This document shows positions 24,755 through 40,660 of a DNA stretch of 64,000 nucleotides, in pieces. The translations under genes and the position numbers were made by a program. The notes beneath the pieces are model-generated. The model worked only from the letters and a program-made list of their open reading frames with translations, did no database searches and was not told the origin of the DNA. The stretch lies in the IMG/VR virus record IMGVR_UViG_3300044712_000363, positions 2,066 to 66,065 of that record, one strand, 5' to 3'. Each line of letters begins with the position of its first letter. The first letter of the stretch is position 1. The stretch comes from a virus (taxonomy: Duplodnaviria; Caudoviricetes).

Positions 24755-25111
24755 CTACAACGTAACGCCGAAATATTTGCCGGCCATTGTCCCGCCCGTT
24801 GATGCGGCAGTGGATGCCTTGGCAATTTGCACTTGGATGTCGGTGTACATATCTGTAATTTGGAAATAAGTCGAATTACCAACAGTCAAGGAAGCGGACG
24901 ACAAAACGGTTATATCGTAATTCGTGCTATCAATACTACCCATAACCTTATAGGCTATATCCGTTGTGGCAGCGGTCAACACAATAGCTTTTGTTTTGTA
25001 CGCTTTGCAAGCAAAACTGCCAAGCACTGTAAATGCTGTGGATGCCGTTGCCGCAGTGGTCCATGAATCATAGGCACCGCCTATGTCGTATTGTTTAGCG
25101 AAGGAAGTCAA
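24755..25111 (-). CDS. Ser/Thr-rich virion decoration-like protein
   Basis: Beta-rich 118 aa in head accessory cluster. Confidence 0.65.
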   Translation of the reverse strand: MTSFAKQYDIGGAYDSWTTAATASTAFTVLGSFACKAYKTKAIVLTAATTDIAYKVMGSIDSTNYDITVLSSASLTVGNSTYFQITDMYTDIQVQIAKASTAASTGGTMAGKYFGVTL

Positions 25112-25114
25112 TTA

Positions 25115-26062
25115 TTACCCCTCCTTTATTGGTACTCCAAACAAATGTTTACCATCATACATGTTGGTACGGCCAAATAAGCGCGTCTCGTCGGCGTGAC
25201 TCCATACCCTAATCGCGTACTCGGCATCTTCAATCGCGCCCTGATATTTAGCCAGGTTGCGGTCCAGTGTGTCAATCTGCGACCATGTGCTTTTCATATG
25301 GGACCGGATTTCCTTTAGCCGTTGCGGTGCAAATTCCGGCGGCATATCTTCGGACTTAATGACGAAATCCTGAAACTGACTGACAAGATTTCGCTTTTCC
25401 GCTTCCATTTGTGCCATGCGCCCTTGAAAATCCTGTGTGCGGGCTTGCATCTTGACTTTGGCCTCATCGTCCTCGACATAGCCATACTGAAACCTGAGTT
25501 TGAGCATGTCGGCTTTGGGCGGGATCATGATTTTTATGCCTTTCCCTGCCGCAATGCCTAGCCAGTATTCACAGGATGGCCGTTGGTAGCCGTATTCCCT
25601 ATCAAGCAAGGAATCGGAAGCCATGTCAATACCGTAAATACGAATCTCCTTATACCCCATATGGATGGCCAGCGCCGTCATGTACGAACAGGAATTATTC
25701 AGATAGTTGCCATACTGATAGGATTCCATGATTTCTTCAAGCGGATATTCCACGGAAAAAGGAATGTCGTCGTAATGTTGGTGCATGTAAACCGGGAGTT
25801 TGGCATCACGTAACCATTGCAGGTGATTCGCACTCCGGGGAGTTTTCTCCACCAGTTCCCGGACGTGCATCTCAAACCACCGGTCAGCTTTAGGGATCTG
25901 GGTGTATAAGTCGTTCATACCCCAGAATTCAAAATCCGGATTGTCCCAGGGAACATCAGCCAACGTATATGGGCAATAGCCCAGGATAATAACCTTGTCT
26001 TTTTTTCGCCGTAAATCTAATTTTGATTCCGTCTTTTTATTTAATACCGCGAGTTCACTCAT
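25115..26062 (-). CDS. CstII(GT42)/Maf-like nonulosonate transferase candidate
   Basis: KVIILG..P...DFEFWGMNDLY and SYMTALAIHMGYKEIRIYGIDM match the CstII pattern as recalled (KVIIAGNGP...N.FY; VYMCAVAIALGYKEIYLSGIDF); C-terminal coiled coil. Confidence 0.65.
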   Translation of the reverse strand: MSELAVLNKKTESKLDLRRKKDKVIILGYCPYTLADVPWDNPDFEFWGMNDLYTQIPKADRWFEMHVRELVEKTPRSANHLQWLRDAKLPVYMHQHYDDIPFSVEYPLEEIMESYQYGNYLNNSCSYMTALAIHMGYKEIRIYGIDMASDSLLDREYGYQRPSCEYWLGIAAGKGIKIMIPPKADMLKLRFQYGYVEDDEAKVKMQARTQDFQGRMAQMEAEKRNLVSQFQDFVIKSEDMPPEFAPQRLKEIRSHMKSTWSQIDTLDRNLAKYQGAIEDAEYAIRVWSHADETRLFGRTNMYDGKHLFGVPIKEG

Positions 26063-26085
26063 CTCTTTATTCCCTCCAAAAATAT

Positions 26086-26412
26086 TTAATTATCGGTTAC
26101 ATAAACCCAATCCACCGGCAATTTATCATCGGCAATTAGCCGCACATCGCCGGAAGAAACGGCCTCCGCCATGTATTCGGTCAAAAACAAAATGTCATCC
26201 TCGCTGAAAGGATGACATATAGCACATAGTCCATTTGCGTCTTGTGCATAGGTAATCACGTTGGGAGTACCGTCAGGGTCGCCAATGTTTGTTTCAAAAT
26301 AATCGCCAATGGCTTTCTTTGGCCCCATCCAACACCAACAACCACTAGGCACAACGGCAATTTCCTGCAACCATGTGTCGGCTATAGTCTTGCTTTTAAA
26401 TGCTATGAGCAA
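26086..26412 (-). CDS. hypothetical protein
   Basis: 108 aa, AGGAGG RBS, TTG start. Confidence 0.6.
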   Translation of the reverse strand: MLIAFKSKTIADTWLQEIAVVPSGCWCWMGPKKAIGDYFETNIGDPDGTPNVITYAQDANGLCAICHPFSEDDILFLTEYMAEAVSSGDVRLIADDKLPVDWVYVTDN

Positions 26413-26493
26413 GTATTGCCGCCTCCTTTGCCGCGTCTATGCGCTCTTGGCGTTTAGTGTCGCGCTCTTCTTTGGTTTTGGGACGTTTATTAC

Positions 26494-27192
26494 TCATATG
26501 GTTATTCCCCTCCCTGCCATTGTACGGCGTAATACTCTATGGTCGTGGAGGCATTCGGCATCAGACAAAACACGGTTATAAATTAACATCGAATATACAA
26601 CCCCAACAAGATTGTACAGTCCGCCAGTGATGCCTATAATCCATGTTCCCTTTGCGCCCCAAGTGTTTGTATATGCCAGGTCCCCGCTTTTAGTTGTGTT
26701 TTGGAACACATGCGCGGTTCCACCAGAATAACGCAGACAATGTATATATGGCGTGTTTACCGCCACGGTTAACCCCGTGACGATGTTTGCACTTGATGCG
26801 ACACCCGCATTTATTGCGCCGGTTGTTGTCGCGGCAAAGATATAACTGCGTGAATTCGTCCCTCCATTTGCTCCAAATACGGCTTTATTCGATGCTAATG
26901 ATGTAGCCTTCCAAGCAACGATAATCGTCGCATTCTCTGTAATTAATACAGGTGTCGTGGTGTAATCATCGCTATCATTAGTAAGTCCGCCATTAGCGAA
27001 TGAAGGATCATTTGTGTCTACTCCCGCCGTACTGCCTAACTGGCCATGGTTTCCATTGCCACTCCGGTCAATCAACACTTGCCCTGTCTGGCCCGTCAAT
27101 ATCTGCCATCCAGGATCATACCAAGCGATTAAACCGTTACTCACCAACCCTTGATAATATAAATGAGGTGACAATATTGGCATATCATCCAC
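26494..27192 (-). CDS. LamG/ConA-like virion protein
   Basis: NGLIAWYD, DRSGNGNHG, IYNRVLSDAE LamG signature. Confidence 0.8.
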   Translation of the reverse strand: MDDMPILSPHLYYQGLVSNGLIAWYDPGWQILTGQTGQVLIDRSGNGNHGQLGSTAGVDTNDPSFANGGLTNDSDDYTTTPVLITENATIIVAWKATSLASNKAVFGANGGTNSRSYIFAATTTGAINAGVASSANIVTGLTVAVNTPYIHCLRYSGGTAHVFQNTTKSGDLAYTNTWGAKGTWIIGITGGLYNLVGVVYSMLIYNRVLSDAECLHDHRVLRRTMAGRGITI

Positions 27193-27576: not shown

Positions 27577-27625
27577 TGGTCCACCTCCTGAAGTTAAAAG
27601 GCCGCCTCAATAGACGGCCCTCTGT

Positions 27626-27940
27626 TTATGCTGTTGAGATTATTACCCAGTCCGATGTACTTGCGGCAAACAGTACCTTGCCGGACGCCGTAGATCGAGC
27701 GAAAAAACCTATGGATGTCGGCGCTGTGCCCGTGGATACATTCGGCAGTTTAAACGATGCCGCACTACTCAATGCTACAGCCCCAGTGAAGTTTGCCGCG
27801 CCTCCGGTCAATGTGCCCGTCACGGTAAAACCGGAACTTGCGACAATCGTTGCGTTTGCGGTGCTTTTCAGCGTGGCCCCGCTTAAAAATTCAAAAACAT
27901 TATGGATTATGGTCCCGCGTACCTTGTCGGTTATGCCCAA
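27626..27940 (-). CDS. Ser/Thr/Ala-rich head fibre-like protein
   Basis: 104 aa, downstream of major capsid gene. Confidence 0.6.
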   Translation of the reverse strand: MGITDKVRGTIIHNVFEFLSGATLKSTANATIVASSGFTVTGTLTGGAANFTGAVALSSAASFKLPNVSTGTAPTSIGFFARSTASGKVLFAASTSDWVIISTA

Positions 27941-28183
27941 TTATGCCACCCCCTGTTTTTTGGATTTGGACTGAGGAGGTTTTTCATTTTCTTCGGTGGC
28001 TTTAATGGCCTCCTCAATCAGTCGAAAATCTTCTTCGGAATTAGGGCGGCGTAGATACCGCCCTTCTTCCAAGCCGCGCACATTGCGGAAAATTGATGTG
28101 TCAACCGGTTGTCCCGGACTTAGCCGGCCATCGTTGCTGACAAACGTTTTTACGACAATTCTATAATCATTAATCGTAGGCAT
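27941..28183 (-). CDS. small head-region protein
   Basis: 80 aa directly after major capsid gene. Confidence 0.65.
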   Translation of the reverse strand: MPTINDYRIVVKTFVSNDGRLSPGQPVDTSIFRNVRGLEEGRYLRRPNSEEDFRLIEEAIKATEENEKPPQSKSKKQGVA

Positions 28184-29163
28184 TAAGTACTCGCCCCCGA
28201 GAACAGATAACCGAGGTCAGTGGCAATGACTTTCATGTCATAAGCCATTTCTCCCTCGATCCTGTCACATTTGGTCAGGTCATTACGAATCCGGCTAATG
28301 GTCACACCATTGGCATTTCTGCCGCCGTATCCAGACCATGCGAAGATATAGCCGGCGGTAGGAGCCAGCAGTGAAGGAGTGGGTGCGGTATAGCAAAGCA
28401 GAGCATATTTGCCGAGTACTTGACTGAAACTGTTGGCCGCGCCCTCGACGCCGGTGTTGTAAACTGCATCCATGACGACAAGTTTCTGCAAACCGAATAC
28501 TTGAGCGACAAGGTCCTGGGTGATGATGCCTTTTTGGGTGTACTTAATACGTTCCAAAATGTCGGGGTGGTCTTTAAGCACGTCCCATACTTCGCCGCCC
28601 ATAACAAGGGCATTGGGTTTATAACCGGTATTGGTTTTGATGGTTCTTGCGCCCGTGGTAACATCTTTTACGGGATCGGATGTGGCGTAATTGGACCATG
28701 CAGTGAAATCCGTGCCGCCGGTGTACGTGGTGTCCCATGTTCCTGAACTCAGGAAGTGGGTAACAAAATCACGTTCGCGGCGAAGCAGCAGCCGCTGCGT
28801 GACGAACTCGGTGGCGTCCCGGTCACTGTTGATTCCTGCGTCCTCATTGGCCCTGACCATGTCTGGAATGTCTTTATGAATACCATATACTGCGCAGGAA
28901 TAGGTGTCGGTGGAATTCAGCGTAAAGCCGGACCCTACAGTCTCGCCGGCAGGCGGACGGACATCTGCCTCATCTCTAAACCAGCACCCTTTCGGATAAT
29001 TGAAGTAGCGGTCAGTCTGTTTCTGCACCGGTACGACGGGGAAAATATCTGCAGCCCTATATTCGGACTGATTTTGAATATAGGCAACGGATATATTGGT
29101 TAGCGGCGTATTGACATGCACGTCGCTTGCGGTAGGTTGACTTTTGCGAATCGCAAATTGCAT
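28183..29163 (-). CDS. major capsid protein
   Basis: 326 aa; HVNTPLTNISVAY, FPVVPV, LKDHP.I.ERIKY; follows scaffold and cement genes. Confidence 0.9.
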   Translation of the reverse strand: MQFAIRKSQPTASDVHVNTPLTNISVAYIQNQSEYRAADIFPVVPVQKQTDRYFNYPKGCWFRDEADVRPPAGETVGSGFTLNSTDTYSCAVYGIHKDIPDMVRANEDAGINSDRDATEFVTQRLLLRRERDFVTHFLSSGTWDTTYTGGTDFTAWSNYATSDPVKDVTTGARTIKTNTGYKPNALVMGGEVWDVLKDHPDILERIKYTQKGIITQDLVAQVFGLQKLVVMDAVYNTGVEGAANSFSQVLGKYALLCYTAPTPSLLAPTAGYIFAWSGYGGRNANGVTISRIRNDLTKCDRIEGEMAYDMKVIATDLGYLFSGAST

Positions 29164-30802: not shown

Positions 30803-31420
30803 TTACTCTTCAATTATTTCACGGCGACCCTTGCCGCCAATGGAGAACGAGTTATAATGGCCCCCTTTAACGAGATCCCATGCATCAGATTTTGTTATGT
30901 GATAGCCTACCCACCAGCCACAGCAAGGTAATATCCCTTCCGGTATCCCCAAAGCGGCGATTTTCTCCTTAGTAAAAACCATGGATTCCACGAGATCGCC
31001 AATTAATTCTTCGTGGTTTTCCCCAGCTTTTCGGAATTTGAGAACGTGATTATATGCGGCCCTTTCGAGTTCATTTGGTTCAATTATGTCATTGTCAGCA
31101 TCCACCACAACGTTGCCCTGTGCATCCGTTGCTATGCTCAACCATCCAAACACCATCTGCATGTCCTGGTCAACCTTCGATATTTCAAACTCCCGCCGCC
31201 ATTCCTCACTCTTCTTGGCCCAGTTCCCTTCCGTGTCCTGATGATACCCGGCGTTTTCTAATGCTCCATATGCCTGGGCAAAGGCCGTGGAATCGGTTTC
31301 GCCTTCCTGGGCTATGACATCGTTGAATACCTCGCGGAATATACTCTGCGCTGCCGTGGGCATTGCTTCGCGCACTCGCGGGGGAAGGTCACTATTCGTT
31401 TTATAGGGCAAATTGATCAC
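30803..31420 (-). CDS. ChaB domain fused to XkdF-like prohead protease
   Basis: PYKTNSDLP..VR...P..AQ.IFR..FN (ChaB); VDADNDII, LVES, YNSFSIGG (XkdF). Confidence 0.8.
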   Translation of the reverse strand: MINLPYKTNSDLPPRVREAMPTAAQSIFREVFNDVIAQEGETDSTAFAQAYGALENAGYHQDTEGNWAKKSEEWRREFEISKVDQDMQMVFGWLSIATDAQGNVVVDADNDIIEPNELERAAYNHVLKFRKAGENHEELIGDLVESMVFTKEKIAALGIPEGILPCCGWWVGYHITKSDAWDLVKGGHYNSFSIGGKGRREIIEE

Positions 31421-31432
31421 CTCCTAAAATAG

Positions 31433-31469
31433 AAAAAGACCCGCCTACCGATTAAGGTAGACGGGTTTC
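31433..31469. terminator. bidirectional terminator
   Basis: ACCCG-CTACC/GGTAG-CGGGT stem flanked by A- and T-runs. Confidence 0.7.
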
Positions 31470-31510
31470 TGGAACCTCAAAAAATATTTACTTTTGTTTG
31501 ATTATTTTGC

Positions 31511-31539
31511 TTGCAATACATTCTATAGTATGCTATAAT
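31511..31539 (+). promoter_or_regulatory. sigma-A promoter of antisense moron
   Basis: TTGCAA-17-TATAAT with extended TG; near-palindrome CATTCTATAGTATG in spacer. Confidence 0.8.
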
Positions 31540-31561
31540 AAAGACAAGATAAAGAACGGGA

Positions 31562-31777
31562 GTGATTGAAATGAAAAGAATGAGCAAAGAAGAGTTTAAA
31601 AACCTTCCCCAATTACTACAAGAAGAAATTAAAGCTACTTTTCGTAAAACGACTGCCGATCACTATAACATCGAGCATAAGTGGGGTTGCTGGGGTTCTT
31701 GCGAAGATGACGAAATTGATGACTTGTACGACCATGAATATGTTGGTACTGTATTTAAAGAGGACATAAATGACTAG
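31562..31777 (+). CDS. small acidic protein
   Basis: About 70 aa, D/E-rich C-half, GGGAGTG RBS. Confidence 0.7.
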   Translation: MIEMKRMSKEEFKNLPQLLQEEIKATFRKTTADHYNIEHKWGCWGSCEDDEIDDLYDHEYVGTVFKEDIND

Positions 31778-31937
31778 AGGCGGCGCAAGACCAGGGGCCG
31801 GACGCAAACCCGGCTCCCTCAAAAAAACACCATTTACAGACCGAACGGAGCAATTAGGCAAGCGGATCACAAAAGAGGAAAAGGCCGCTTTAGAGGCACA
31901 TTTAAAGAGGATGAGAGGAGCGAAGAAAAATGTTTAA
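31770..31937 (+). CDS. 55-aa basic DNA-binding protein (not in ORF track)
   Basis: MTRGGARPGAGRKPGSLKKTPFTDRTEQLGKRITKEEKAALEAHLKRMRGAKKNV; overlaps both neighbours. Confidence 0.7.
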   Translation: MTRGGARPGAGRKPGSLKKTPFTDRTEQLGKRITKEEKAALEAHLKRMRGAKKNV

Positions 31938-32238
31938 AATCCAAGCCTACACAACGGCAGGTAATTACCCAAACGAAAGAAAGCTTGATGACGATTACGC
32001 ATTACATGCCAACGTCGAAAGCGCGAAAGAGTTTGACGAATTTATCCAAAAAAATCTACATCCTGAAGTGTACCAAGTATTGAAAGTTCCCGATGAAAAA
32101 TCAATTTGCGGGTACAGTTGGAAAAGTGGATTTTTGACATGTAGACTAGAATTAGACTGTTATAATTGCAATCATCGGCCAGGATGTGAAGCAAACGACG
32201 GCATGTGTTATCACGAAATCGAGGAAGCCTCCCACTAA
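31930..32238 (+). CDS. Cys-rich hypothetical protein
   Basis: C-terminal CRLELDCYNCNHRPGC...C. Confidence 0.7.
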   Translation: MFKIQAYTTAGNYPNERKLDDDYALHANVESAKEFDEFIQKNLHPEVYQVLKVPDEKSICGYSWKSGFLTCRLELDCYNCNHRPGCEANDGMCYHEIEEASH

Positions 32239-32253
32239 GGGAGGTTTTTCTTT
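32226..32253 (+). terminator. terminator of moron
   Basis: GCCTCCC-ACTAA-GGGAGGT-TTTTCTTT. Confidence 0.8.
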
Positions 32254-32263
32254 ACCCCTCTAC

Positions 32264-32286
32264 AAAGCCCCGGCAATCGCCGGGGC
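32264..32286 (-). terminator. terminator ending sugar cluster
   Basis: GCCCCGGC-GATT-GCCGGGGC-TTT on -. Confidence 0.6.
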
Positions 32287-32344
32287 CAGCAAAGGGAAAG
32301 GAGGAAAGGAGGTATTGAGTCAGCAGTTTCCTGCTAATTAGCGT

Positions 32345-32563
32345 TTAGAAATCAGTTATAACTTTTAGAAACTTACCTTCCATTGTAAACTTAAAGGTAG
32401 TCCATTCTTCGCTTGCTTCTTCTGATTTTTCGCCTCGGATAAAATATAATTCTAATGTGCGTTCAAAGTCTAAATGCGCTAAGTTATTTACAATTTCATA
32501 GCTTATCCCTAATTCGTCGAATAAGTCTCTGACTTTTTTTAAATCAGATTTAAAATCAAGCAC
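32345..32563 (-). CDS. hypothetical protein
   Basis: 72 aa overlapping radical SAM stop. Confidence 0.6.
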   Translation of the reverse strand: MLDFKSDLKKVRDLFDELGISYEIVNNLAHLDFERTLELYFIRGEKSEEASEEWTTFKFTMEGKFLKVITDF

Positions 32564-33995
32564 GGCTCTTGGCCTCCTCTAACGCTTTACGCGCAAAATC
32601 TAAATGTGGGTACATGTCCACTACAGCCCCAAACAACCTGCAAGCCTTGGCCGGACAATTTTCCGTGTTCCAATTATGCAAGAAATTGGTTTCAATGTTT
32701 GCCCTTTCCTTTGCTTCAGTCAAGTATTCATGGGTAAACGCTTGGTTCTTCAGCATGGGACTATAAAAAGAGCGTAGCGGATCGAAATCGTTCGGATCAA
32801 GCCACCCTCTGTCTATACATGTTTGGTATATCTCGGTTCCCGGTAACGGGCTGAATACGAAGAAATGGCTCCAATCCAGTTCCAGGGACTTTGCAAACTC
32901 AATAGTATTTTCTATGTCAACCTTTCCTTCGCCGGGAAATCCCAAAATAAAAAAGCCCCGGACATCCATGCCGAGACTTCTTATTTTGTCCACCATCGGC
33001 TTTACCTTCGCCAGATTGATCGGTTTTTTCATGATCTTAGTACAAATGTCCTGGTTCCCGTTTTCGATGGCAAGGGAGACAGAATAACAGCCGGATGCGG
33101 CCATTTTTTCAAGGAGTTCGTCGTCGAGGCAAGAGACAGCCATGCCGCTGGGGACGGTCCAGGTTAAACCGTAGTTTCGTTCAATCAGTCCGTCGAAGAT
33201 TTGTATGGCCCGCGCTCTGTCGCCGGTGAGATTGTCGTCCTCGAAGTGGATCTCGCGTATGCCGTATTGGTTGACGAGAAAGTCTATTTCGGATAGGACG
33301 GACACGGCGGAACGGTATCGCGGCTTTTTGCCCCAGTGATTGGCAATACTGCAGAAGGAACACGCGAATTTGCATCCTCGGGAAGTGATCATGGTCATAA
33401 AGGGTTTTTGCTTGTACCCTGCATGGCCGACGGCAAGGTCAAAGTATTTTTGCATGGGGAGAAGATGATAGGCAGGGAAAGGAATGGTGTCGAGGTTTTC
33501 AATGGGTCGCGGTCTTGAAAATCCGTGGTTTATGATGTCTAATATTGCTTGTTCCCCGTCGCCGCGAATGACGTAATCTACCGAATAGCCACGAAACTTC
33601 AATATTTTTTCTTTGTTGGTTCCTGCCCATGCTCCGCCGATAACTGTGCTAATATTTCTATTAACTTCTTTTGCTAGGCCGCAAACATATACGGCATCTC
33701 GTTCCATAGCCGAGAAAAGGCATGATACCCCAACACAATCAGGATTATATTCCCGGATTCTTTTTATTATTTCGTGGTCCGAAAGGCCATAGCGAATTGT
33801 ATAACCTTTTTTTTGAGTTATTCCCTGCAAATCCCCCTCAATCAAAGCATCGAGAATCCTTACCTCATGCCCTGCTTTTTCGAGTGCTGCGGCGACGTAG
33901 GCAAGTCCAAGGGGAATGAATGGGGAAACTCGGACGATAGATGCGTCAAAACCCACCGGCCTTGTGACCGGCGGGGATATAAGTAACACTTTCAC
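32556..33995 (-). CDS. B12-binding radical SAM enzyme
   Basis: PLGLAYVAAAL cobalamin domain; TSRGCKFACSFC; FEDDN; FILGFPGE. Confidence 0.93.
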   Translation of the reverse strand: MKVLLISPPVTRPVGFDASIVRVSPFIPLGLAYVAAALEKAGHEVRILDALIEGDLQGITQKKGYTIRYGLSDHEIIKRIREYNPDCVGVSCLFSAMERDAVYVCGLAKEVNRNISTVIGGAWAGTNKEKILKFRGYSVDYVIRGDGEQAILDIINHGFSRPRPIENLDTIPFPAYHLLPMQKYFDLAVGHAGYKQKPFMTMITSRGCKFACSFCSIANHWGKKPRYRSAVSVLSEIDFLVNQYGIREIHFEDDNLTGDRARAIQIFDGLIERNYGLTWTVPSGMAVSCLDDELLEKMAASGCYSVSLAIENGNQDICTKIMKKPINLAKVKPMVDKIRSLGMDVRGFFILGFPGEGKVDIENTIEFAKSLELDWSHFFVFSPLPGTEIYQTCIDRGWLDPNDFDPLRSFYSPMLKNQAFTHEYLTEAKERANIETNFLHNWNTENCPAKACRLFGAVVDMYPHLDFARKALEEAKSRA

Positions 33996-33999
33996 GGAG

Positions 34000-35136
34000 T
34001 TAGCCTCCTAAAAGAATTTTCTTAAAAAGTAAATTCGGGTCCTCGATATTCTCCTTAATCACCTGAACTATTCTCTTGCTGGGCAAATCGTCAGGCAATA
34101 CCATCCCGCCGTCTGCAGATCCTAGTGCTTCTTTTATGTGTTGCACAAGTTCATCGACATCATATACAGTATTAATAACCGACGGATAGTGTTGCCGGCC
34201 ACTTTGCCTACTACCTATATTTATGGTTCTGTGTCCCGTGAACGGGTATTCAATCACTCCGCAGGAAGAATTGCCTATCATGAATGCAGATTGCTGCATC
34301 AGGCTTTGGAATAGTTGGTTTTCGAGATTTGTGAATGCTTTGCAGTTGTCGTGTGTCCAGCAATATTCATTTATGGCATTGATAATGGTATTTGATTCTA
34401 ACTCGGCGCATGGTTGCACAAAAACAGTCTGTTGGTTTATCCTATCCAACGCGCTAAGAATAGGATTAATTTGACCCTCTACACTTAATGATTGAACGGT
34501 CAAACATCTTTTATCTTGATAGTTTACTTTTGGCTCAATCGAAGGGTAATAGATGCACAACGCCGTCGGAATGCTTAAATCAAGCCCTATGGCCTTGCTA
34601 GTTTCCTCCAGGGATAGTTTCGGAGTCCGGGCGACGTTCTCAAGTCCGCATTGGCCTACGATGTGGACTCGCTCCGGTTGTTCCCCGGATTGAATGAGGT
34701 TTTTCGCGGCATAATGGTCGCTGACTAGGTGCAGATGGGCAAAACGACTTAAAGCATAGCGGTATAAGTTGTCCCGGCTGCCGTCTGTGATTTCGCCGTC
34801 ACCGATTAATGCAATAGGTATGTCGCGAAGATTTGCGGCCAGGGCAATCGGAACCAGCTCCACCCTGTCTCCGTTTAGGATGAGCATGTCGGGTTTTATA
34901 TCCAACAATGCTCCCGAAACATCTCGCAATACATGCGAGAGGTTAAAACAAGCCGTTTGAAAGTCTCTAGCATCATAATTGCGAATATAATATGCCGGCA
35001 TATCAATCTCGCCCTTGGGTATCCATCCAGTGATTAAAGATAGGTCAAACTCCGGATCATCACGAAGGGCCTGTATGACATAGCGGGAGGCGTTTAGTTC
35101 GCTTCTTTGCGTTGTGACCCATGCTATTTTTTTCAT
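34000..35136 (-). CDS. neuC: UDP-GlcNAc 2-epimerase, hydrolysing (NeuC/LegG type)
   Basis: TTQRSE, GDRVE, D...R...S..AHLH, GNSSCG.IE, NIGSRQ.GR. Confidence 0.85.
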   Translation of the reverse strand: MKKIAWVTTQRSELNASRYVIQALRDDPEFDLSLITGWIPKGEIDMPAYYIRNYDARDFQTACFNLSHVLRDVSGALLDIKPDMLILNGDRVELVPIALAANLRDIPIALIGDGEITDGSRDNLYRYALSRFAHLHLVSDHYAAKNLIQSGEQPERVHIVGQCGLENVARTPKLSLEETSKAIGLDLSIPTALCIYYPSIEPKVNYQDKRCLTVQSLSVEGQINPILSALDRINQQTVFVQPCAELESNTIINAINEYCWTHDNCKAFTNLENQLFQSLMQQSAFMIGNSSCGVIEYPFTGHRTINIGSRQSGRQHYPSVINTVYDVDELVQHIKEALGSADGGMVLPDDLPSKRIVQVIKENIEDPNLLFKKILLGG

Positions 35137-35432
35137 GCTTCACCATCTAATACTTTTTGCTTAAACTTAGTTAAAAACTTATGTAGTTCGCTTTTTGTTG
35201 TAACCATTATATCCATGCCATACGTTAATCTATTTTCATTCTCGAATACCGATTTAGTAACAGTGAAAGTATTGTATATACCTTCTGCTATTTTATAAGC
35301 TATATTGCTTTTTGCTGTGTTTTCATGTTTTCTTGCCTCTTCTTCTGTGTATTCGTTATATCTATCAAGATCGATATCGCAATAAGTTTCTATGGACAAA
35401 AAATGTTTATCCAAGTCAATATTTTTAAACAT
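35133..35432 (-). CDS. hypothetical protein
   Basis: 99 aa, AT-rich, coupled overlaps. Confidence 0.6.
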   Translation of the reverse strand: MFKNIDLDKHFLSIETYCDIDLDRYNEYTEEEARKHENTAKSNIAYKIAEGIYNTFTVTKSVFENENRLTYGMDIMVTTKSELHKFLTKFKQKVLDGEA

Positions 35433-36241
35433 TAAACGCTCCCCCTCGCCGTGTAATATTCCAATTCCAAATTCCCGAATTTCTTCTTAAACCGGTGCAA
35501 CGAGTCATCCTCAGCAAGTCCCCCGCCGAAATGTACTAACTTGACTCCTCGCCCTTGGTAATAGTGGCATGCCTCACTGATTAACCTTTCCATCGGGTAC
35601 AGGTGGGCATATTCGATGTCCATGCCGCTGAATTGGTAGTGGGCCGTATATTTGTCGTGCAGGAAGGTTGCGGCGGCGATTATTTTTTCATCACAGTCCA
35701 TTATTGTGAATAAATCAATACTATCTTTAAGATGAGCGAACATTCTTGAGAAATAAATTAGATTATATTTATAACAACGTTCAGTTTGATTTCTTTCCAT
35801 AGTTTCAATATAAAGCCTATGAAAATTAAAAAATGGGTTGCGGTCATCTGGAAATTCATATAATAGTTCGTATCCGTGAAATATTCTATCGTCACAATCA
35901 GATTCCATATTCTTCTTAATCGATGACTTTGTCCCATGCCCCCACCGGATCGGCATCGATAAGTCCCGAGCCACGGTATGGCGGCTAAATACAGCGTTCG
36001 GAAAATCAATATGGTTTCTCAGCCAGGGCGTAAACCGGATAAGGTATTCTTTGGCCCCTGCCGCCTTTAAATCGTTGATAAAGTCGAAAGGGCAAAAGTC
36101 CTGAGTCGGCCCACCGTAGGAGTTATTTGGCGTGTAGGCCAGTCCGTCACGCAATAAAAGAGGCATGCCGCCAGCCGTTATAATTTCGGCCCCGTCATGC
36201 CATGCCTGGAACTGCATATATTGTTTTGTTTGATAGATCAT
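35432..36241 (-). CDS. FemAB-like GNAT acyltransferase
   Basis: YGGP, F..LY.ETM.R, AHYQFSG, HFGGG....DSL..FKKKFG. Confidence 0.8.
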   Translation of the reverse strand: MIYQTKQYMQFQAWHDGAEIITAGGMPLLLRDGLAYTPNNSYGGPTQDFCPFDFINDLKAAGAKEYLIRFTPWLRNHIDFPNAVFSRHTVARDLSMPIRWGHGTKSSIKKNMESDCDDRIFHGYELLYEFPDDRNPFFNFHRLYIETMERNQTERCYKYNLIYFSRMFAHLKDSIDLFTIMDCDEKIIAAATFLHDKYTAHYQFSGMDIEYAHLYPMERLISEACHYYQGRGVKLVHFGGGLAEDDSLHRFKKKFGNLELEYYTARGSV

Positions 36242-36527: not shown

Positions 36528-36719
36528 TTATTGTATTTTCCGGTAGTTAATAATAACAGTAGATCTTCCATTGGGCTTTCTCTCTATGTACCCACGATCG
36601 CGCCCTAGAACACTAATACCTTCCTCTATTGATACATGGGTAATCCCGATTTCTCCTGACTCCGCCTGTTCAATTATTTTCTTTAAACACTCAATGGCTT
36701 TGGGATCAAATTCATCCAC
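36528..36719 (-). CDS. hypothetical protein
   Basis: 63-aa ORF with AGGAG RBS. Confidence 0.55.
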   Translation of the reverse strand: MDEFDPKAIECLKKIIEQAESGEIGITHVSIEEGISVLGRDRGYIERKPNGRSTVIINYRKIQ

Positions 36720-36723
36720 AGAG

Positions 36724-37533
36724 TCAAACTCCTTTCAACCTATACAAATCCCTAACCTGCAATTCCCTTTCACACGGCTGTTTGATACCATTCCCCATGG
36801 CCGCTTCAACATTTCTGATCGCCTGCACCATTTGCTTAAACTCGCCGGGCTCTAATGATGCCGCATGATCCGGGCCGGGAAGGTTCCTGTTCAATGTCAG
36901 ATGTTTCTCGATAACCGTTGCGCCAAGTGCCACGGCTGCAATCGGGATTTCAATGCCGGGGGTATGGTCGGAGAGGCCAGTATACCATGTAAATTCATCT
37001 TTCATTTGCTTTATTGCGTTAAGATTGACTTCTTCGTACTTGGTAGGGTATAAAGAAATGCAATGTAATAACTGCACCCATCGAACGCCCGGACGGCATA
37101 AAAGATCAAGTGCTTCTCTAATTTCTTTTTTACTGCCCATACCCGTTGATAAGATAATTGGTTTGTTTTTAGTTGCAACCTTCTCCAAAAATGATTTATT
37201 TGTCAGATTTCCGCTGCCAATCTTTATGATTTCTATGTCCATCTCATCAACCAGGAAATCAAGGCTTTCCTCGTCGTCCGGTGTGGATAGGAACATGATC
37301 CCGATGTCGTCGCAGTATTGCTTCACATTGCGGAAGAAGTCGAACGGCATTTCCAAGTCCTTTAGCATTTGATACCGGGGATGGTCGGGGGGGAGGATTT
37401 TATCGGTGACCCACGTTTGGAACTTGGCCGCTGAAGCCCCGGCTTCTTTGGCTAGATCACAAAGGGTGTATGCCATATCGAGGGATTTATTAAAATTTAC
37501 GCCTATTTCTGCAATTATAAAAGTGTTCGGCAA
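36724..37533 (-). CDS. neuB: nonulosonic acid synthase (NeuB/LegI/PseI family), lacking SAF domain
   Basis: IIAEIGVN, KFQT, KIGSG, ILSTGM, LHC.S.YP, GLSDHT, IEKH.TL, GPDH.ASL. Confidence 0.93.
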   Translation of the reverse strand: MPNTFIIAEIGVNFNKSLDMAYTLCDLAKEAGASAAKFQTWVTDKILPPDHPRYQMLKDLEMPFDFFRNVKQYCDDIGIMFLSTPDDEESLDFLVDEMDIEIIKIGSGNLTNKSFLEKVATKNKPIILSTGMGSKKEIREALDLLCRPGVRWVQLLHCISLYPTKYEEVNLNAIKQMKDEFTWYTGLSDHTPGIEIPIAAVALGATVIEKHLTLNRNLPGPDHAASLEPGEFKQMVQAIRNVEAAMGNGIKQPCERELQVRDLYRLKGV

Positions 37534-37534
37534 T

Positions 37535-37741
37535 TTAATCGCTCCTTTTCAATGTTTGCCATTCTCCGTTGCCAATACGGTATTTCGTATGCTTTCGTAT
37601 CTTTTGCATCATCCAATCCACGGCTTCTTCGGGTTTAACGATTCTTAAAAGAACCAAAAGCGCCATAAACCAGCTGAACAATTTGAGTCTTATTGTCGGG
37701 CTTTTTATAGTCATTTTGAGAGTCGCATCTTTTATAGTCAT
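37535..37741 (-). CDS. small hydrophobic protein
   Basis: 68 aa with one hydrophobic stretch. Confidence 0.5.
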   Translation of the reverse strand: MTIKDATLKMTIKSPTIRLKLFSWFMALLVLLRIVKPEEAVDWMMQKIRKHTKYRIGNGEWQTLKRSD

Positions 37742-38295
37742 TGCAATCTACTCCTCATCAAAGCCTCGGCTATCCGCCAATCAATTTCCTCGTCTATATC
37801 CACCGAATTCTCCTTGCCCATCAGATACAAAAAAGAACTGTCGTTATATAAACGTCCAGTCCGTCGAATAAAGTCTGTTGTGGCCGCGTATATGGCCCCA
37901 TTTTGGATGTAAGTCCCGTCTATGGGACTGTAGACCGATACAAGGGATTCAGTCATGTATCCTGCGGCCTCCCGGATGTTCTCCGGCGTGCGTAATGGCG
38001 ATGTGCATTGCAGGAGCATAATTGAGTCTACCAGATATTTATCCGCTACCCACCGGACGACATCAACATTGGTCGATATGTCGGAAGCCATAGGTTGGGG
38101 AATGACTATTGCTCCGTAACTACGAGCAATGGCCCCTATTTCAGCATCTTCGGTGGATACAAATATTTCGTCGAATACTCCGCTGTCCTGGGCCTGTTTT
38201 ATGGCCCAATAGATCAACGGCATGCCGCAGAATTCGCGGATATTTTTGCGGGGGATTCTCTTTGAACCACCTCTGCACGGAATAAGTGCATACAT
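37738..38295 (-). CDS. neuA: CMP-nonulosonate synthetase (NeuA/PseF/LegF family)
   Basis: IPCRGGSKRIPRKN, LQCTSPLR, NGAIY, SVDID. Confidence 0.93.
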   Translation of the reverse strand: MYALIPCRGGSKRIPRKNIREFCGMPLIYWAIKQAQDSGVFDEIFVSTEDAEIGAIARSYGAIVIPQPMASDISTNVDVVRWVADKYLVDSIMLLQCTSPLRTPENIREAAGYMTESLVSVYSPIDGTYIQNGAIYAATTDFIRRTGRLYNDSSFLYLMGKENSVDIDEEIDWRIAEALMRSRLQ

Positions 38296-38383
38296 TACTT
38301 ATACCTCCGGTCAACCCAGTGCATAAAGCCAAGTAAAACAAAAAACGAAACGATGATAATTGTTATCGTCATTCGAAGTTCCA

Positions 38384-39481
38384 TTATCCAAGCACCTCCA
38401 AGAGTGTCTTTGCCACGTATTCGATGTCCTCCACCGCGTTCAGGGTACTGCTTGGTAAACACAATCCCTTTTCGTATAGTTCCCGGGCGTTTGGTAAATT
38501 GGTCAGGGGTTCAAATATGCGCCTGGTAGGTATGCCGCGGGCTTTTAGTTCGGCCTGAATTTGGGGGATTTGTTTGTTGTGGTTGATTTTGATGGCGGTG
38601 AACCAGAAAGAGGGTTTTGTTGGATTAGTCCATCTAAAATTTGAACTGTAGTCGTTTTGGTAAAATTTTTGCATTTCAACAATGCCGCGGTCTATTAACG
38701 CTTCCAAGTGCAAACAGTATGAATTATAGAACTCATGCTTCTTTTCCAGGAACTCCGGCAATCGCCCCATTTGTGACAATCCCAAAGCCGCATTCTGGTT
38801 TACCATACCAAAATTAAAACCGTGTCCAACAACGTTTCCGTTACTGTCACGGCCTTGATTTACGAATTGCCTTGCACGTTCTGCCAATACATTACTATTT
38901 GTGACTATCATTCCGCCCCCGCCGCTGGTAATAATTTTGTTGCGGTTGAAGCTGAAGCAACCAATTGGTCCAATAGTCCCGGTTTGATATCCGTCATATG
39001 TTGCGCCCAAAGACTGGCAAGCATCCTCGATTACTTCTAGCCCTTTATCATTAGCTATCTGCATTATCTCTTCCATATCGCAAGGATTACCGTATAAATG
39101 TACGGGCAATATAGCCTTCGTTTTTATCGTAATTGCCTTCTCAATCTCGGCAGGGTCGATATTCCATGTATTTGGGTCAATGTCTACCACTACAGGTCGG
39201 GCCCCGGTCATCGTGACCGCATGCTTTGTTGCAACAAATGTCGTGGCCGGGATAATTACTTCATCGCCATGGCCTGTGCCTAGGACTTTCAGGGCAGTAA
39301 AAATGGCCGCAGAACCAGAGTTAGTGCTGATACAGTGGACATCACCGCCAAGATAAGCAGCAACGGCCTTTTCAAATTCTCCACGTTTGTCACCCACTGT
39401 CGATATGTCGTTACCCAATAGGGCTTTTTGTACTGCATCTATGTCTTTAAAACTGATGTTCGGATTGTCAAGGTAAATCAT
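38384..39481 (-). CDS. DegT/DnrJ PLP aminotransferase, LegC-like
   Basis: PATTFVAT, PVHLYG, IEDACQSLG, FSFNRNKIITSGGGGM. Confidence 0.9.
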   Translation of the reverse strand: MIYLDNPNISFKDIDAVQKALLGNDISTVGDKRGEFEKAVAAYLGGDVHCISTNSGSAAIFTALKVLGTGHGDEVIIPATTFVATKHAVTMTGARPVVVDIDPNTWNIDPAEIEKAITIKTKAILPVHLYGNPCDMEEIMQIANDKGLEVIEDACQSLGATYDGYQTGTIGPIGCFSFNRNKIITSGGGGMIVTNSNVLAERARQFVNQGRDSNGNVVGHGFNFGMVNQNAALGLSQMGRLPEFLEKKHEFYNSYCLHLEALIDRGIVEMQKFYQNDYSSNFRWTNPTKPSFWFTAIKINHNKQIPQIQAELKARGIPTRRIFEPLTNLPNARELYEKGLCLPSSTLNAVEDIEYVAKTLLEVLG

Positions 39482-39488
39482 AAGCGTT

Positions 39489-39725
39489 TTACGCCTCCTT
39501 AATGCACTTGGTAACTTCGATGGTTTCTCCTGTTACTTTACAAATAAGTTTGCAGGGAATAATAATCGGTTCTGTTATTCCAAGCGTAAATGTCGAACTT
39601 ATTTCAGAAAATGAACATTCAAGGCATTTCTTGACTGACATCCCGCATTCGACTTCTTCCATAAATTCTTTAATTTCTTTGTACACCTTTATTGCTGTAA
39701 GTGTAGGCAGATCAGAGTCCGTCAT
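39489..39725 (-). CDS. Cys-rich hypothetical protein
   Basis: 78 aa with CLEC and further Cys. Confidence 0.5.
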   Translation of the reverse strand: MTDSDLPTLTAIKVYKEIKEFMEEVECGMSVKKCLECSFSEISSTFTLGITEPIIIPCKLICKVTGETIEVTKCIKEA

Positions 39726-40660
39726 ATTTGCGCCTCCCCTATCTGCTTCCTGATCTCTTCAACGGTCAGGAACTGATTGTCCATCGAATCATATTGAAAG
39801 TCAATCGGTACGCTGTTTTTTGGCACGCCTTCTTTGATTAGATAATAACTGCCGCAGTCTGCCGTAATGTCTGCCGTTTCCCTGGGGCAGATGATTTCCT
39901 TCAGTTTCTCCCCCGGCCTCATGCCGACAGTCTCAAAGCCTTTGCCCAGGGCATCTATTAGATCCCGGATGTAGATCGACTTCATTTTCGGGACGAATGT
40001 CTCTTGCCCGCTCATGTGCATAAGGCATTTAAGGATAAACTCTGCACACTCGTCGGCGCTGATCCAGAACCGCGCCATAAGTGGATGTGTCAAGGGCAAG
40101 AACTCTGCACCCTCGGCAATCAGTTTCCTATAGTGCGGCAATACGGACCCGGAAGAATTAATGACGTTGCCCAAGCGGACAACGGAAAACTTCGTGCCCT
40201 TGTCCATATTGTTTGCCGCGATAAATAGTTTTTCGGCAGCCAGCTTCGTGGCCCCATAGAGAGATACGCTGTTAATCGCCTTATCGGTGGATATCAATAT
40301 GGCTTTTTCTATGCCATGGGCGATAGCGGCTTTTATGACGTTCTCAGTCCCGATGACGTTGGTCTTAATACATTCCATCGGGTTGAATTCGGCTATGTCA
40401 ACGTGCTTCATCGCTGCTGCGTGAATAATGTAGTCGATGTCCTTGCATGCCTGATTCACGCGGTCAAAGTCGCGCACGTCGCCAACAAAAAAGCGCAAGC
40501 AGTCATTTTTGAACTGTTGCGCCATGAGATAGTGCTTATGTTCGTCCCGGCTGAATACTACCAGTCGCCGGGGTTGGTAATTGTCAAGTATGTGTTTCAC
40601 CAGGGCTTTACCTAATGTTCCGGTCGCCCCTGTAATGAGAATTGAACGTCCGTTGAGCAT
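39722..40660 (-). CDS. pseB: UDP-GlcNAc 4,6-dehydratase (PseB/FlaA1 type)
   Basis: ITGATGTLG, SRDE.K, HAAA.KHV, NP.ECIKTN, STDKA, YGATK, RFWI, RPGEKL. Confidence 0.9.
   Translation of the reverse strand: MLNGRSILITGATGTLGKALVKHILDNYQPRRLVVFSRDEHKHYLMAQQFKNDCLRFFVGDVRDFDRVNQACKDIDYIIHAAAMKHVDIAEFNPMECIKTNVIGTENVIKAAIAHGIEKAILISTDKAINSVSLYGATKLAAEKLFIAANNMDKGTKFSVVRLGNVINSSGSVLPHYRKLIAEGAEFLPLTHPLMARFWISADECAEFILKCLMHMSGQETFVPKMKSIYIRDLIDALGKGFETVGMRPGEKLKEIICPRETADITADCGSYYLIKEGVPKNSVPIDFQYDSMDNQFLTVEEIRKQIGEAQI

What the first reader, a model, noticed from the sequence alone, without database searches (positions are those of the whole stretch)
24755..40660. Candidate phage-encoded virion nonulosonylation ('sialylation') system
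Seen: a CMP-nonulosonate pathway (dehydratase, aminotransferase, acyltransferase, hydrolysing epimerase, synthase, CMP-synthetase) is co-oriented between MuF and the prohead protease, inside the late head operon. A CstII/Maf-like transferase sits among the capsid decoration genes, and outer virion proteins are rich in Ser-Thr. Known: Pse/Leg pathways plus Maf O-glycosylate flagellin Ser/Thr, and some actinophages glycosylate virions with glycosyltransferases encoded among structural genes. Inference: this phage makes its own sialic-acid-like donor and coats its capsid and tail. That could give charge/adhesion control, protease or antibody shielding, or host-surface mimicry. I know of no described phage with a self-contained donor pathway, transferase and acceptor motif of this kind.
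Basis: partly seen in the sequence, partly recalled or inferred. Interest (0 to 1): 0.93.

Follow-up and report, generated by a model that had tools for sequence, protein, structure and literature searches.

The report
Phage sialic-like sugar pathway, capsid-linked transferase
A complete uncultured phage genome carries its own pathway for an activated sialic-acid-like sugar. Beside its capsid genes it has a new virus-specific enzyme shaped like a sialyltransferase, so it probably sugar-coats its own head proteins, although no experiment has yet shown this.

Summary
Observation confirmed. The window is nearly all of a complete 66-kb phage genome with terminal repeats. Between MuF and the prohead protease lie intact, co-oriented genes for a 4,6-dehydratase, aminotransferase, CMP-synthetase, NeuB-type synthase, acyltransferase, NeuC-type hydrolysing epimerase and a B12 radical-SAM enzyme.

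The 315-aa protein at 25115-26062 ("T315") has no family name but folds like the Campylobacter sialyltransferases Cst-I/CstII.

- New here: T315 relatives and phage NeuB/CMP-synthetase genes travel together in both directions. All 4 of 4 near-complete T315 phages have both genes, and 14 of 16 near-complete NeuB phages have T315.
- None of 75 capsid relatives without T315 has either gene. The closest capsid relative lacks both the cassette and T315.
- T315 lies one or two genes after capsid genes of several unrelated families, usually just after a Ser/Thr-rich protein.
- The "acyltransferase" folds like aminoacyl-tRNA-dependent FemX.

The acceptor is unproven, and Ser/Thr richness alone is weak evidence. 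This scan had already noted the same system in at least 18 other genomes. Eight literature searches found no description of it.

The parts
43169..44038 (-). MuF-like head morphogenesis protein. It marks the upstream boundary of the head module into which the cassette is set.
   Evidence: phrog_3517 head morphogenesis, E 1e-38
40840..41322 (-). Small membrane protein directly upstream of the cassette. Its role is unknown.
   Evidence: phrog_1486 membrane protein, E 4e-10; no Pfam hit
39722..40705 (-). UDP-GlcNAc 4,6-dehydratase (PseB/PglF class), step 1.
   Evidence: PF02719 E 3.5e-86. TIGR03589 PseB scores 370.9 bits, below its cut-off of 407.75. 54% identical in L082.
38384..39481 (-). PLP-dependent sugar 4-aminotransferase, step 2.
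   Evidence: PF01041 E 9e-94. Best NCBIfam hit is the LegC family at 277.9 bits (cut-off 420); PseC scores 223. 60% identical in L082.
37738..38295 (-). CMP-nonulosonate synthetase (cytidylyltransferase), a short 185-aa form, step 6.
   Evidence: PF02348 E 3e-21. TIGR03584 PseF scores 117 bits (cut-off 205.7) and matches only profile positions 2-121 of 222. 59% identical in L082.
36724..37533 (-). NeuB-family nonulosonate synthase without the C-terminal SAF domain, step 5.
   Evidence: PF03102 E 6e-82. TIGR03569 scores 323 bits (cut-off 399.65). Invariant His190, Glu209 and His211 columns are kept.
35432..36241 (-). FemX-like tandem-GNAT transferase, the likely N-acyl or N-aminoacyl transferase acting on the 4-amino sugar, step 3.
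   Evidence: PF13480 and PF02388. AF2 model pLDDT 90. Foldseek listed ranks 1-26 are all aminoacyl-tRNA-dependent transferases (FemX TMq 0.75, E 3e-13; Sbb17/Sba18; MprF). Only 14 relatives, all unnamed.
34000..35136 (-). NeuC-type hydrolysing UDP-sugar 2-epimerase, step 4.
   Evidence: TIGR03568 scores 248.2 bits, above its cut-off of 235.9; PF02350 E 3e-39
32556..33995 (-). B12-binding radical SAM enzyme, a presumed C-methylating tailoring step. Its substrate is unknown.
   Evidence: PF02310 plus PF04055. All NCBIfam hits are far below their cut-offs. The gene starts 4 nt after the NeuC stop codon.
30803..31420 (-). Prohead protease (XkdF type) with a ChaB domain. It marks the downstream boundary of the cassette.
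   Evidence: PF14550 E 5e-19 and PF06150
28183..29163 (-). Major capsid protein.
   Evidence: phrog_1005 E 7e-89
27626..27940 (-). 104-aa Ser/Thr-rich protein (29% S+T), the first candidate acceptor.
   Evidence: Translation; S+T fraction. A 31%-identical homologue sits in the same slot in L002. The analogous slot in other T315 phages holds Ser/Thr-rich proteins.
26494..27192 (-). ConA/LamG-like 232-aa protein, a possible head decoration or lectin-like protein.
   Evidence: PF13385 E 1e-5, below its cut-off. Absent from L002 and L083.
25115..26062 (-). T315: a GT42/MptE-like fold domain (residues about 12-189) plus a helical hairpin (residues 197-290). It is the candidate CMP-nonulosonate transferase.
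   Evidence: co-occurrence
24755..25111 (-). 118-aa Ser/Thr-rich protein (27% S+T) just downstream of T315, the second candidate acceptor. It is also present in the T315-less relative L083.

Best explanation
The phage carries a self-contained glycosylation module.

Inferred from family membership:
- A PseB/PglF-class dehydratase and a DegT aminotransferase convert UDP-GlcNAc to a UDP-4-amino-4,6-dideoxy-hexosamine.
- A FemX-like tandem-GNAT enzyme acylates the new amine, probably with an amino acid taken from aminoacyl-tRNA.
- A NeuC-type enzyme releases UDP with 2-epimerisation.
- A short NeuB-type synthase condenses the product with PEP to a 5,7-diamino-3,5,7,9-tetradeoxy-nonulosonate. This is legionaminic/pseudaminic class; the stereochemistry is open.
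- A B12 radical-SAM enzyme probably adds a methyl group somewhere.
- A cytidylyltransferase makes the CMP-sugar.

Inferred from fold and from gene co-occurrence: the 315-aa GT42-like protein encoded among the head genes uses this CMP-sugar as donor.

Inferred from position only: the acceptor is a Ser/Thr-rich accessory head protein (orf104 at 27626-27940, or orf118 at 24755-25111) made at the same time. The mature capsid would then carry an acidic, sialic-acid-like coat.
For: - The genome is complete, has direct terminal repeats and is viral.
- All enzymes are intact and lie on one strand. From the cytidylyltransferase to the gene after the radical-SAM enzyme they are packed with overlaps or gaps of at most 15 nt.
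- A second phage fragment, L082, keeps portal-MuF-dehydratase-aminotransferase-CMP-synthetase-NeuB in the same order at 52-60% identity. That is the same divergence as its portal.
- T315 fold: Cst-I Z 12.0 and CstII Z 11.4 with 22% identity. Foldseek's top 15 hits are all Cst-I/CstII. The top 8 profile-to-PDB sequence hits are all sialyltransferases, but at marginal E 0.016-0.1.
- Forward coupling. CTP_transf_3 was found in 20 of 43 and NeuB in 18 of 43, and both in 4 of 4 records that are at least 90% complete.
- Reverse coupling. T315 was found in 27 of 32, and in 14 of 16 records at least 90% complete.
- Control. Among 79 loci of capsid relatives, T315 is in 4. CMP-synthetase (2) and NeuB (1) occur only in those 4, and in 0 of the 75 without T315.
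- L083, the closest capsid relative (61%), lacks both the cassette and T315.
- Every CMP-synthetase, NeuB and NeuC hit in T315 loci is on the T315 strand.
- Head linkage. In 9 of 10 loci that I picked for diversity, a major head protein of phrog_10, 371 or 267 lies one or two genes upstream of T315.
- The ORF directly upstream of T315 is at least 22% S+T in 32 of 50 dereplicated loci, against 132 of 792 other ORFs.
- A Ser/Thr-rich family is found in 30 of 84 T315 loci and 0 of 75 without T315.
- Two of four near-complete T315+NeuB phages have no tyrosine or serine recombinase.
Against: - No experiment or expression data exist. Only the source DNA run holds the sequence.
- T315 fails the Pfam CST-I gathering score (18 against 25 bits) and has no PF01973 hit. 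The fold match to MptE-type kinases is within about 1 Z of the sialyltransferases.
- The CstII catalytic histidine could not be located.
- The window's orf104 is not detectably a member of the Ser/Thr-rich family found beside T315 elsewhere (E 0.058). It is separated from T315 by three genes.
- The phage has an integrase, and terminator-like hairpins flank the cassette. Expression from the prophage is therefore conceivable.
- 22 of 43 T315 records show neither NeuB nor CMP-synthetase, though all but one of those are at most 60% complete.
- Three records have CMP-synthetase but no NeuB.
- One complete Microcystis phage record has a distant T315 relative without either gene.
- The reverse test is biased, because its NeuB query came from T315 phages.
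- NeuB lacks its SAF domain and the cytidylyltransferase is short, so activity is assumed, not shown.
Confidence: 0.55

Rival explanations
1. Host-surface conversion. The cassette and T315 modify a host structure (LPS, capsule, S-layer, pilin or flagellin), either in the lysogen or early in infection. This would block superinfection or change the serotype, and the virion itself would not be glycosylated.
For: - The phage has a serine-recombinase integrase at 1220-2689 (phrog_95, E 4.5e-123).
- Terminator-like hairpins at 41699-41672 and 31466-31439 bracket the cassette.
- A small membrane protein is encoded just upstream.
- There is precedent for prophage genes that tailor nonulosonates of Acinetobacter capsules (titles and abstracts of PMC12053666 and PMC6586298, seen in the listing).
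- CstII itself acts on a lipo-oligosaccharide.
Against: - The cassette sits inside the head module at the same place (between MuF and the protease) in relatives as distant as 32-38% portal identity, L080 and L075. It is far from the integrase.
- T315 keeps its position after the capsid gene across at least four PHROG capsid families.
- Two of four near-complete T315+NeuB phages have no integrase.
- No flippase, polymerase or lipid-carrier glycosyltransferase was seen among the ORFs scanned. Not every ORF was scanned.
- T315 relatives are almost absent from cellular genomes. There are 15 loci, all on short MAG contigs of scattered phyla.
Confidence: 0.2
2. T315 is not the transferase for this sugar. 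It would be an MptE-like nucleotide-binding enzyme with another role, such as a kinase or a transferase for a host-made CMP-sugar like CMP-Kdo. The cassette's product would then be used by an unrecognised phage or host enzyme.
For: - The MptE-type HPPK match is Z 10.8 against 12.0 for Cst-I, and thiamine pyrophosphokinase is Z 9.9.
- The nearest named ESM Atlas cluster is PF01973 at 0.80, which is a lead only.
- Records G013, G018 and G020 have CMP-synthetase next to T315 but no NeuB.
- The Microcystis phage has a T315-like gene alone, annotated as a methyltransferase.
Against: - Sequence identity to CstII is 22-24%, against 11-13% to the kinases.
- The only sequence-profile hits in the PDB are sialyltransferases.
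- T315 co-occurs tightly with a cytidylyltransferase, which is the enzyme that makes CMP-sugars.
Confidence: 0.12
3. Artefact or dead cargo. The cassette would be recently captured bacterial DNA or an assembly chimera with no function for the phage.
For: The cassette's GC content (0.42-0.45) is slightly below that of the neighbouring head genes (0.46-0.50). An HNH endonuclease lies near its upstream edge.
Against: - The genome closes with terminal repeats and is rated 100% complete.
- The cassette's GC content is within the genome's range of 0.39-0.50.
- All ORFs are intact.
- L082, from a different sample code, has the same order at 52-60% identity.
- The FemX-like enzyme has only unnamed relatives, four of them on phage-sized contigs of 20.9-60.8 kb.
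Confidence: 0.03

Closest known systems
Maf-dependent O-glycosylation of flagellin with pseudaminic or legionaminic acid (Campylobacter, Helicobacter, Aeromonas). Recalled knowledge, plus the abstract of bioRxiv 10.1101/2022.03.25.485807 seen in the listing.
   Same: A dedicated CMP-nonulosonate pathway is encoded beside the genes of a self-assembling surface structure. The presumed target is Ser/Thr of an exposed structural protein. The transferase belongs to the MptE/GT42-like fold group.
   Different: This is a phage, not a bacterium. T315 has no PF01973 hit and lacks the extra Maf domains. The acceptor is not flagellin. The enzyme set mixes Pse-like and Leg-like members with a NeuC-type epimerase and a FemX-like acyltransferase.
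Campylobacter jejuni Cst-I / CstII sialyltransferases (CAZy GT42, Pfam PF06002; PDB 2p2v, 1ro7, 1ro8)
   Same: These are the best fold matches (Z 12.0 and 11.4 over 160-170 residues, 18-22% identity). The shared motif block around the GYKEI...G.D segment aligns by profile. The donor is a CMP-nonulosonate.
   Different: T315 scores below the Pfam gathering score. It has a C-terminal helical hairpin instead of the CstII membrane-association region. The CstII acceptor is a lipo-oligosaccharide sugar. The catalytic histidine was not located in T315. The family is virus-specific.
Virion glycosylation in mycobacteriophages (Freeman et al. 2023). That paper is not held, so it is known here only through a passage in PMC12619734.
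   Same: Phage-encoded transferases modify the phage's own capsid and tail-tube subunits. The passage says the glycans sit at the C-termini.
   Different: As far as I recall, those phages use ordinary glycosyltransferases and host nucleotide sugars. No donor pathway and no nonulosonate are involved.
Prophage-encoded tailoring of Acinetobacter baumannii capsule nonulosonates (PMC12053666, PMC6586298; titles and abstracts only)
   Same: Phage-borne enzymes act on pseudaminic or legionaminic acids.
   Different: Those enzymes alter the host capsule. They comprise one or two tailoring enzymes, not a synthase, activator and transferase set inside a head operon.

Membership tests
Legionaminic/pseudaminic-class CMP-nonulosonate pathway | UDP/GDP-GlcNAc 4,6-dehydratase | tested here: met
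   PF02719 E 3.5e-86. The equivalog TIGR03589 PseB scores 370.9 bits, below its cut-off of 407.75, so inverting versus retaining chemistry is undecided.
Legionaminic/pseudaminic-class CMP-nonulosonate pathway | PLP-dependent 4-aminotransferase (PseC/LegC) | tested here: met
   PF01041 E 9e-94. LegC family 277.9 bits and PseC 223 bits, both below their equivalog cut-offs.
Legionaminic/pseudaminic-class CMP-nonulosonate pathway | Acetyl-CoA N-acetyltransferase of PseH or PglD/LegH type | tested here: not met
   No such hit was found. The only acyltransferase is FemAB/Acetyltransf_6-like with a FemX-like fold.
Legionaminic/pseudaminic-class CMP-nonulosonate pathway | Removal of the nucleotide: NeuC/LegG-type hydrolysing 2-epimerase (Leg, Neu) or PseG hydrolase (Pse) | tested here: met
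   TIGR03568 NeuC scores 248.2 bits, above its cut-off of 235.9. No PseG-like protein turned up among the ORFs scanned.
Legionaminic/pseudaminic-class CMP-nonulosonate pathway | NeuB-family PEP-condensing synthase | tested here: met
   PF03102 E 6e-82. Below the equivalog cut-offs. The C-terminal SAF domain is absent.
Legionaminic/pseudaminic-class CMP-nonulosonate pathway | CMP-nonulosonate synthetase | tested here: met
   PF02348 scores 76.6 bits, above its cut-off of 22.6. PseF equivalog 117 bits, below 205.7. The protein is only 185 aa.
GT42 sialyltransferases (Pfam PF06002 CST-I) | Sequence membership (Pfam gathering score) | tested here: not met
   18 bits against a cut-off of 25, E 0.002, with only 33 residues matched.
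GT42 sialyltransferases (Pfam PF06002 CST-I) | Fold of the catalytic domain | tested here: met
   Cst-I Z 12.0 (rmsd 3.4, 170 aligned) and CstII Z 11.4 (rmsd 3.3, 160 aligned). Foldseek E 9e-6.
GT42 sialyltransferases (Pfam PF06002 CST-I) | Catalytic base and CMP-phosphate-binding tyrosines in place | tested here: inconclusive
   The profile alignment puts the family-invariant Glu156-Tyr157 opposite the CstII Ser-Tyr that follows the GID motif. No residue-level structural superposition was available, and the roles of the CstII residues are recalled, not tested.
Maf / MptE-like (Pfam PF01973) | Sequence membership | tested here: not met
   No PF01973 hit at E <= 0.01. The fold match to MptE HPPK is Z 10.8. 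The ESM Atlas lead is 0.80.
Phage virion glycosylation | Transferase encoded within the structural operon | tested here: met
   T315 lies between the capsid gene and the next head genes in the window, and in 9 of 10 sampled loci.
Phage virion glycosylation | Glycan present on virion proteins | not testable with these tools
   This needs mass spectrometry or a glycan stain of virions or of co-expressed proteins.

The most novel reading that the evidence does not exclude
Thousands of environmental phages may carry a virus-specific glycosylation system. Its core is a new sialyltransferase-fold family (5,495 clusters at 50% identity) that is genetically locked to phage NeuB and CMP-synthetase genes. 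It would put sialic-acid-like sugars on Ser/Thr-rich head proteins. This phage holds the most elaborate version: it would build an N-aminoacylated, possibly C-methylated diamino-nonulosonate from UDP-GlcNAc, using aminoacyl-tRNA. That would be a sugar chemistry and a capsid coat not described for any virus.
Probability: 0.4. Interest if true: 0.9.

Novelty: new variant of a known kind. Interest (0 to 1): 0.78.

Why it matters
Sialic-acid-like sugars on a capsid would change its charge, stickiness, protease resistance and recognition by hosts and immune systems. They would also add a new layer to phage-host and phage-environment interactions in soil and water.

The transferase family is large, unnamed and almost confined to viruses. 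It would be a new source of enzymes for attaching rare nonulosonates to proteins. A FemX-like enzyme acting on a nucleotide sugar would widen the known uses of aminoacyl-tRNA outside translation.

The hypothesis can be tested directly by co-expression and mass spectrometry, without needing the unknown host.

Tried and rejected
- Megablast of the whole region against 50,697 GenBank phage records gave no match.
- tblastn of T315 against the same set gave one distant hit, a Microcystis phage (35% over residues 18-194) annotated as a methyltransferase. That record has no NeuB or CTP_transf_3. No cultured model phage is therefore at hand.
- Complex prediction of T315 with orf104 gave no answer (score 0.00). 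This is not evidence either way.
- The look-up of sequencing runs listed no RNA holder. Only the probable source DNA run holds the stretch.
- The promoter and terminator scan found counts no higher than shuffled sequence (38 against 35, and 25 against 20). Only the two long hairpins are mentioned, as weak hints.
- Homology between orf104 and the Ser/Thr-rich family beside T315 was not detected.
- I looked for a link between a capsid C-terminal Ser/Thr and the presence of T315. By eye there is no consistent difference, so I dropped the idea.
- Host assignment failed. There are no tRNA genes. The genome-contig hits are short MAG contigs of scattered phyla. GTA-like tail domains hint at Alphaproteobacteria, but the 45% GC content does not fit well. 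No host is claimed.
- Small cassette ORFs (68, 63, 88, 99 and 72 aa) have no family hits.
- Literature: eight searches found no paper on a phage-encoded nonulosonate pathway for virions. PMC6292376 held the term only in its reference list.

Full report
**What is there.** The window is bases 2066-66065 of a 66,065-bp IMG/VR virus record with direct terminal repeats, rated 100% complete. Almost all genes are on the minus strand.

Reading in the direction of transcription, the genes are:
- terminase large subunit 45350-46627, portal 44054-45349 and MuF-like protein 43169-44038;
- an HNH/DUF559 endonuclease, a HicB-like protein and a small membrane protein;
- the sugar cassette;
- about 0.9 kb with small antisense ORFs;
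- the XkdF-type prohead protease with ChaB 30803-31420, scaffold, a 141-aa decoration-type protein and the major capsid protein 28183-29163;
- five small or medium ORFs, then the 315-aa protein T315 at 25115-26062, a 118-aa ORF, and the remaining head and tail genes.

**The cassette.** Pfam and NCBIfam give the following:
- A Polysacc_synt_2 dehydratase. Its best hit is PseB at 371 bits, under the 408-bit cut-off.
- A DegT aminotransferase. Its best hit is the LegC family, under the cut-off.
- A CTP_transf_3 cytidylyltransferase of only 185 aa. Its best hit is PseF, under the cut-off.
- A NeuB-family synthase of 269 aa. NeuB_NnaB scores above PseI, and both are under their cut-offs.
- A GNAT/FemAB-like protein.
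- A NeuC-type hydrolysing 2-epimerase. This is the only enzyme above its equivalog cut-off (248 against 236 bits).
- A B12-binding radical-SAM enzyme.

The genes from the cytidylyltransferase to the ORF after the radical-SAM gene overlap or are at most 15 nt apart.

From established knowledge of these pathways, a NeuC-type enzyme belongs to the neuraminic and legionaminic routes. The pseudaminic route uses PseG instead. The set is therefore a hybrid, and the stereochemistry of the product cannot be read from sequence.

The synthase keeps the invariant His/Glu/His columns of an alignment with seven other phage NeuBs. It lacks the C-terminal domain that five of them have.

The FemAB-like protein was modelled at pLDDT 90. 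Its listed Foldseek matches from rank 1 to 26 are all aminoacyl-tRNA-dependent transferases: FemX (TMq 0.75, E 3e-13), the streptothrisamine-acylating Sbb17/Sba18, and MprF. Acetyl-CoA tandem GNATs follow with much lower TM-scores. It has only 14 relatives, all unnamed, four of them on phage-sized contigs of 20.9-60.8 kb. I therefore read the N-acyl step as a probable aminoacylation. This is an inference from fold.

**T315.**
- Pfam gives only a 33-residue sub-threshold CST-I hit. PHROGs and NCBIfam give nothing.
- 48 close homologues are all unnamed.
- An AF2 model from 27 sequences (pLDDT 81.9) matches Cst-I/CstII in the first 15 Foldseek rows (E 9e-6).
- By VIA-align, Cst-I is Z 12.0, CstII is Z 11.4 (22% identity), MptE-type HPPK is Z 10.8 (11% identity) and eukaryotic GT29 is Z 7.4-7.7. 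Residues 197-290 form a separate helical hairpin.
- A profile of the family against PDB sequences lists eight sialyltransferases first, at marginal E-values of 0.016-0.1. These align on the block around GYKEI...G.D.
- The family is large: 5,495 clusters at 50% identity with E <= 0.001, and 4,644 with E <= 1e-10.
- The family is essentially viral. IMG/VR holds 359 stretches. One genome for each of 185,579 prokaryote species gave 15 loci, all short MAG contigs of scattered phyla (the search pattern was different and stricter). The ESM Atlas neighbours are 94-100% viral.

**Do pathway and transferase travel together?**

*Forward.* Within the 80 T315 loci (10-kb flanks at most), local HMMs find a cytidylyltransferase in 20 and NeuB in 10. 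All tblastn hits are on the T315 strand.

I searched the whole records of the 43 of 80 loci whose contigs are at least 14 kb:
- CTP_transf_3 is in 20 and NeuB in 18, with 17 having both.
- Both genes are in 4 of 4 records that are at least 90% complete.
- The 22 records with neither gene are, with one exception, at most 60% complete.
- Three records (68-85% complete) have the cytidylyltransferase, in each case directly upstream of T315, but no NeuB. One has NeuB only.

*Control.* Among 79 loci of capsid relatives (44-62% identity), T315 occurs in 4. The cytidylyltransferase (2) and NeuB (1) occur only in those 4, and in 0 of the 75 without T315.

The closest capsid relative, L083 (61%), has MuF followed by the protease with no cassette, and no T315 between the capsid gene and the next conserved head gene.

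*Reverse.* From 80 viral NeuB loci I took the 33 on contigs of at least 25 kb, and 32 were searched. 27 hold a T315 relative, including 14 of 16 records at least 90% complete. This set is biased, because the NeuB query came from T315 phages.

*Counter-example.* A complete Microcystis phage record has a distant T315-like gene but neither NeuB nor a cytidylyltransferase.

*Age of the arrangement.* L082 keeps portal-MuF-dehydratase-aminotransferase-cytidylyltransferase-NeuB in the same order at 52-60% identity. L080 and L075 (32-38% portal identity) also have NeuB, and L080 its cytidylyltransferase, between MuF and the capsid gene.

The full diamino version is rare. DegT is in 2 of 43 and Epimerase_2 in 7 of 43 T315 records.

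**What is the acceptor?** This part is inference.
- In 9 of 10 loci that I chose for diversity, a major head protein of phrog_10, 371 or 267 lies one or two genes upstream of T315. The window's own capsid protein is phrog_1005. The link to capsid genes has therefore survived exchange of the capsid family.
- After dereplication to 56 clusters (50 with an upstream ORF), the ORF just upstream of T315 has at least 22% Ser+Thr in 32 of 50, against 132 of 792 other ORFs. It ends in Ser or Thr in 22 of 50, against 175 of 792. The relatedness of the loci inflates these p-values.
- One Ser/Thr-rich family occupies that slot in 30 of 84 T315 loci and in none of the 75 T315-less loci.
- In the window the analogous protein is orf104 (27626-27940, 29% S+T). 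It has a homologue in the same slot in L002. It is not detectably of that family, and three genes separate it from T315.
- orf118 downstream of T315 also occurs in the T315-less L083.

**Lifestyle and rival reading.** The phage has a serine-recombinase integrase, and hairpins flank the cassette. Conversion of a host surface therefore cannot be excluded. Against it:
- the conserved position inside head modules;
- the absence of integrases in two of four near-complete T315+NeuB phages;
- the near-absence of the family from cellular genomes.

**Prior knowledge.** Eight searches of the held library found no paper on such a system. Virion glycosylation in mycobacteriophages is known to me only through a passage in PMC12619734, because the original paper is not held.

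Earlier notes of this scan report the same kind of module in at least 18 other genomes. My co-occurrence and fold tests were run independently here and agree with them.

**Verdict.** The feature is real and coherent. It is a phage-encoded nonulosonate pathway coupled to a new virus-specific sialyltransferase-fold enzyme in the head module. The sugar class, the donor-transferase link and the head association are well supported computationally. The acceptor, the timing and the exact sugar remain to be shown.

Noticed in passing
window 3879-7733 and 2977-3540: A PAPS-reductase-like (IbrA-type) protein, an SNF2-type helicase, a 384-aa protein of unknown function and a ParB-like protein lie together near the integrase end. 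This may be a DNA-modification or anti-defence module.
   Followed up: no
window 31421-32344: A gap of about 0.9 kb between the cassette and the protease gene holds small plus-strand ORFs (31930-32238, 32186-32341). A strong terminator-like hairpin lies at 31466-31439. It looks like an inserted, oppositely oriented unit.
   Followed up: no
L041, L046, L048, L033 (records G018, G020, G013): The phages with the most similar terminase (57-61%) have a cytidylyltransferase gene immediately upstream of T315 but no NeuB in records that are 68-85% complete. They may activate a host-made sugar.
   Followed up: partly
L128, L131, L152, L031: Ser/Thr-rich proteins between the capsid gene and T315 end in a similar C-terminal Phe-Gly-Ser/Thr-Ser/Thr tail. 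In L152 the next conserved head protein ends the same way. This may be an acceptor tag.
   Followed up: partly
window 13390-18178: The tail genes carry GTA-like domains (DUF2460, Phage-tail_3, Rcc01698_C, DUF2793). The 790-aa distal protein has a weak pectate-lyase-like start, as tailspike depolymerases do.
   Followed up: no
L257 (PP496355.1 34781-35584): A Microcystis phage gene annotated as 'type 11 methyltransferase' is a distant T315 relative (35% over 177 residues). It sits just before the terminase genes, so the annotation is probably wrong.
   Followed up: partly
G044, G050, G054, G055, G068: Several NeuB-bearing phage records carry two T315-family genes. Some family members are 500-630 aa with two matched stretches, which suggests paralogues and fused forms.
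   Followed up: no
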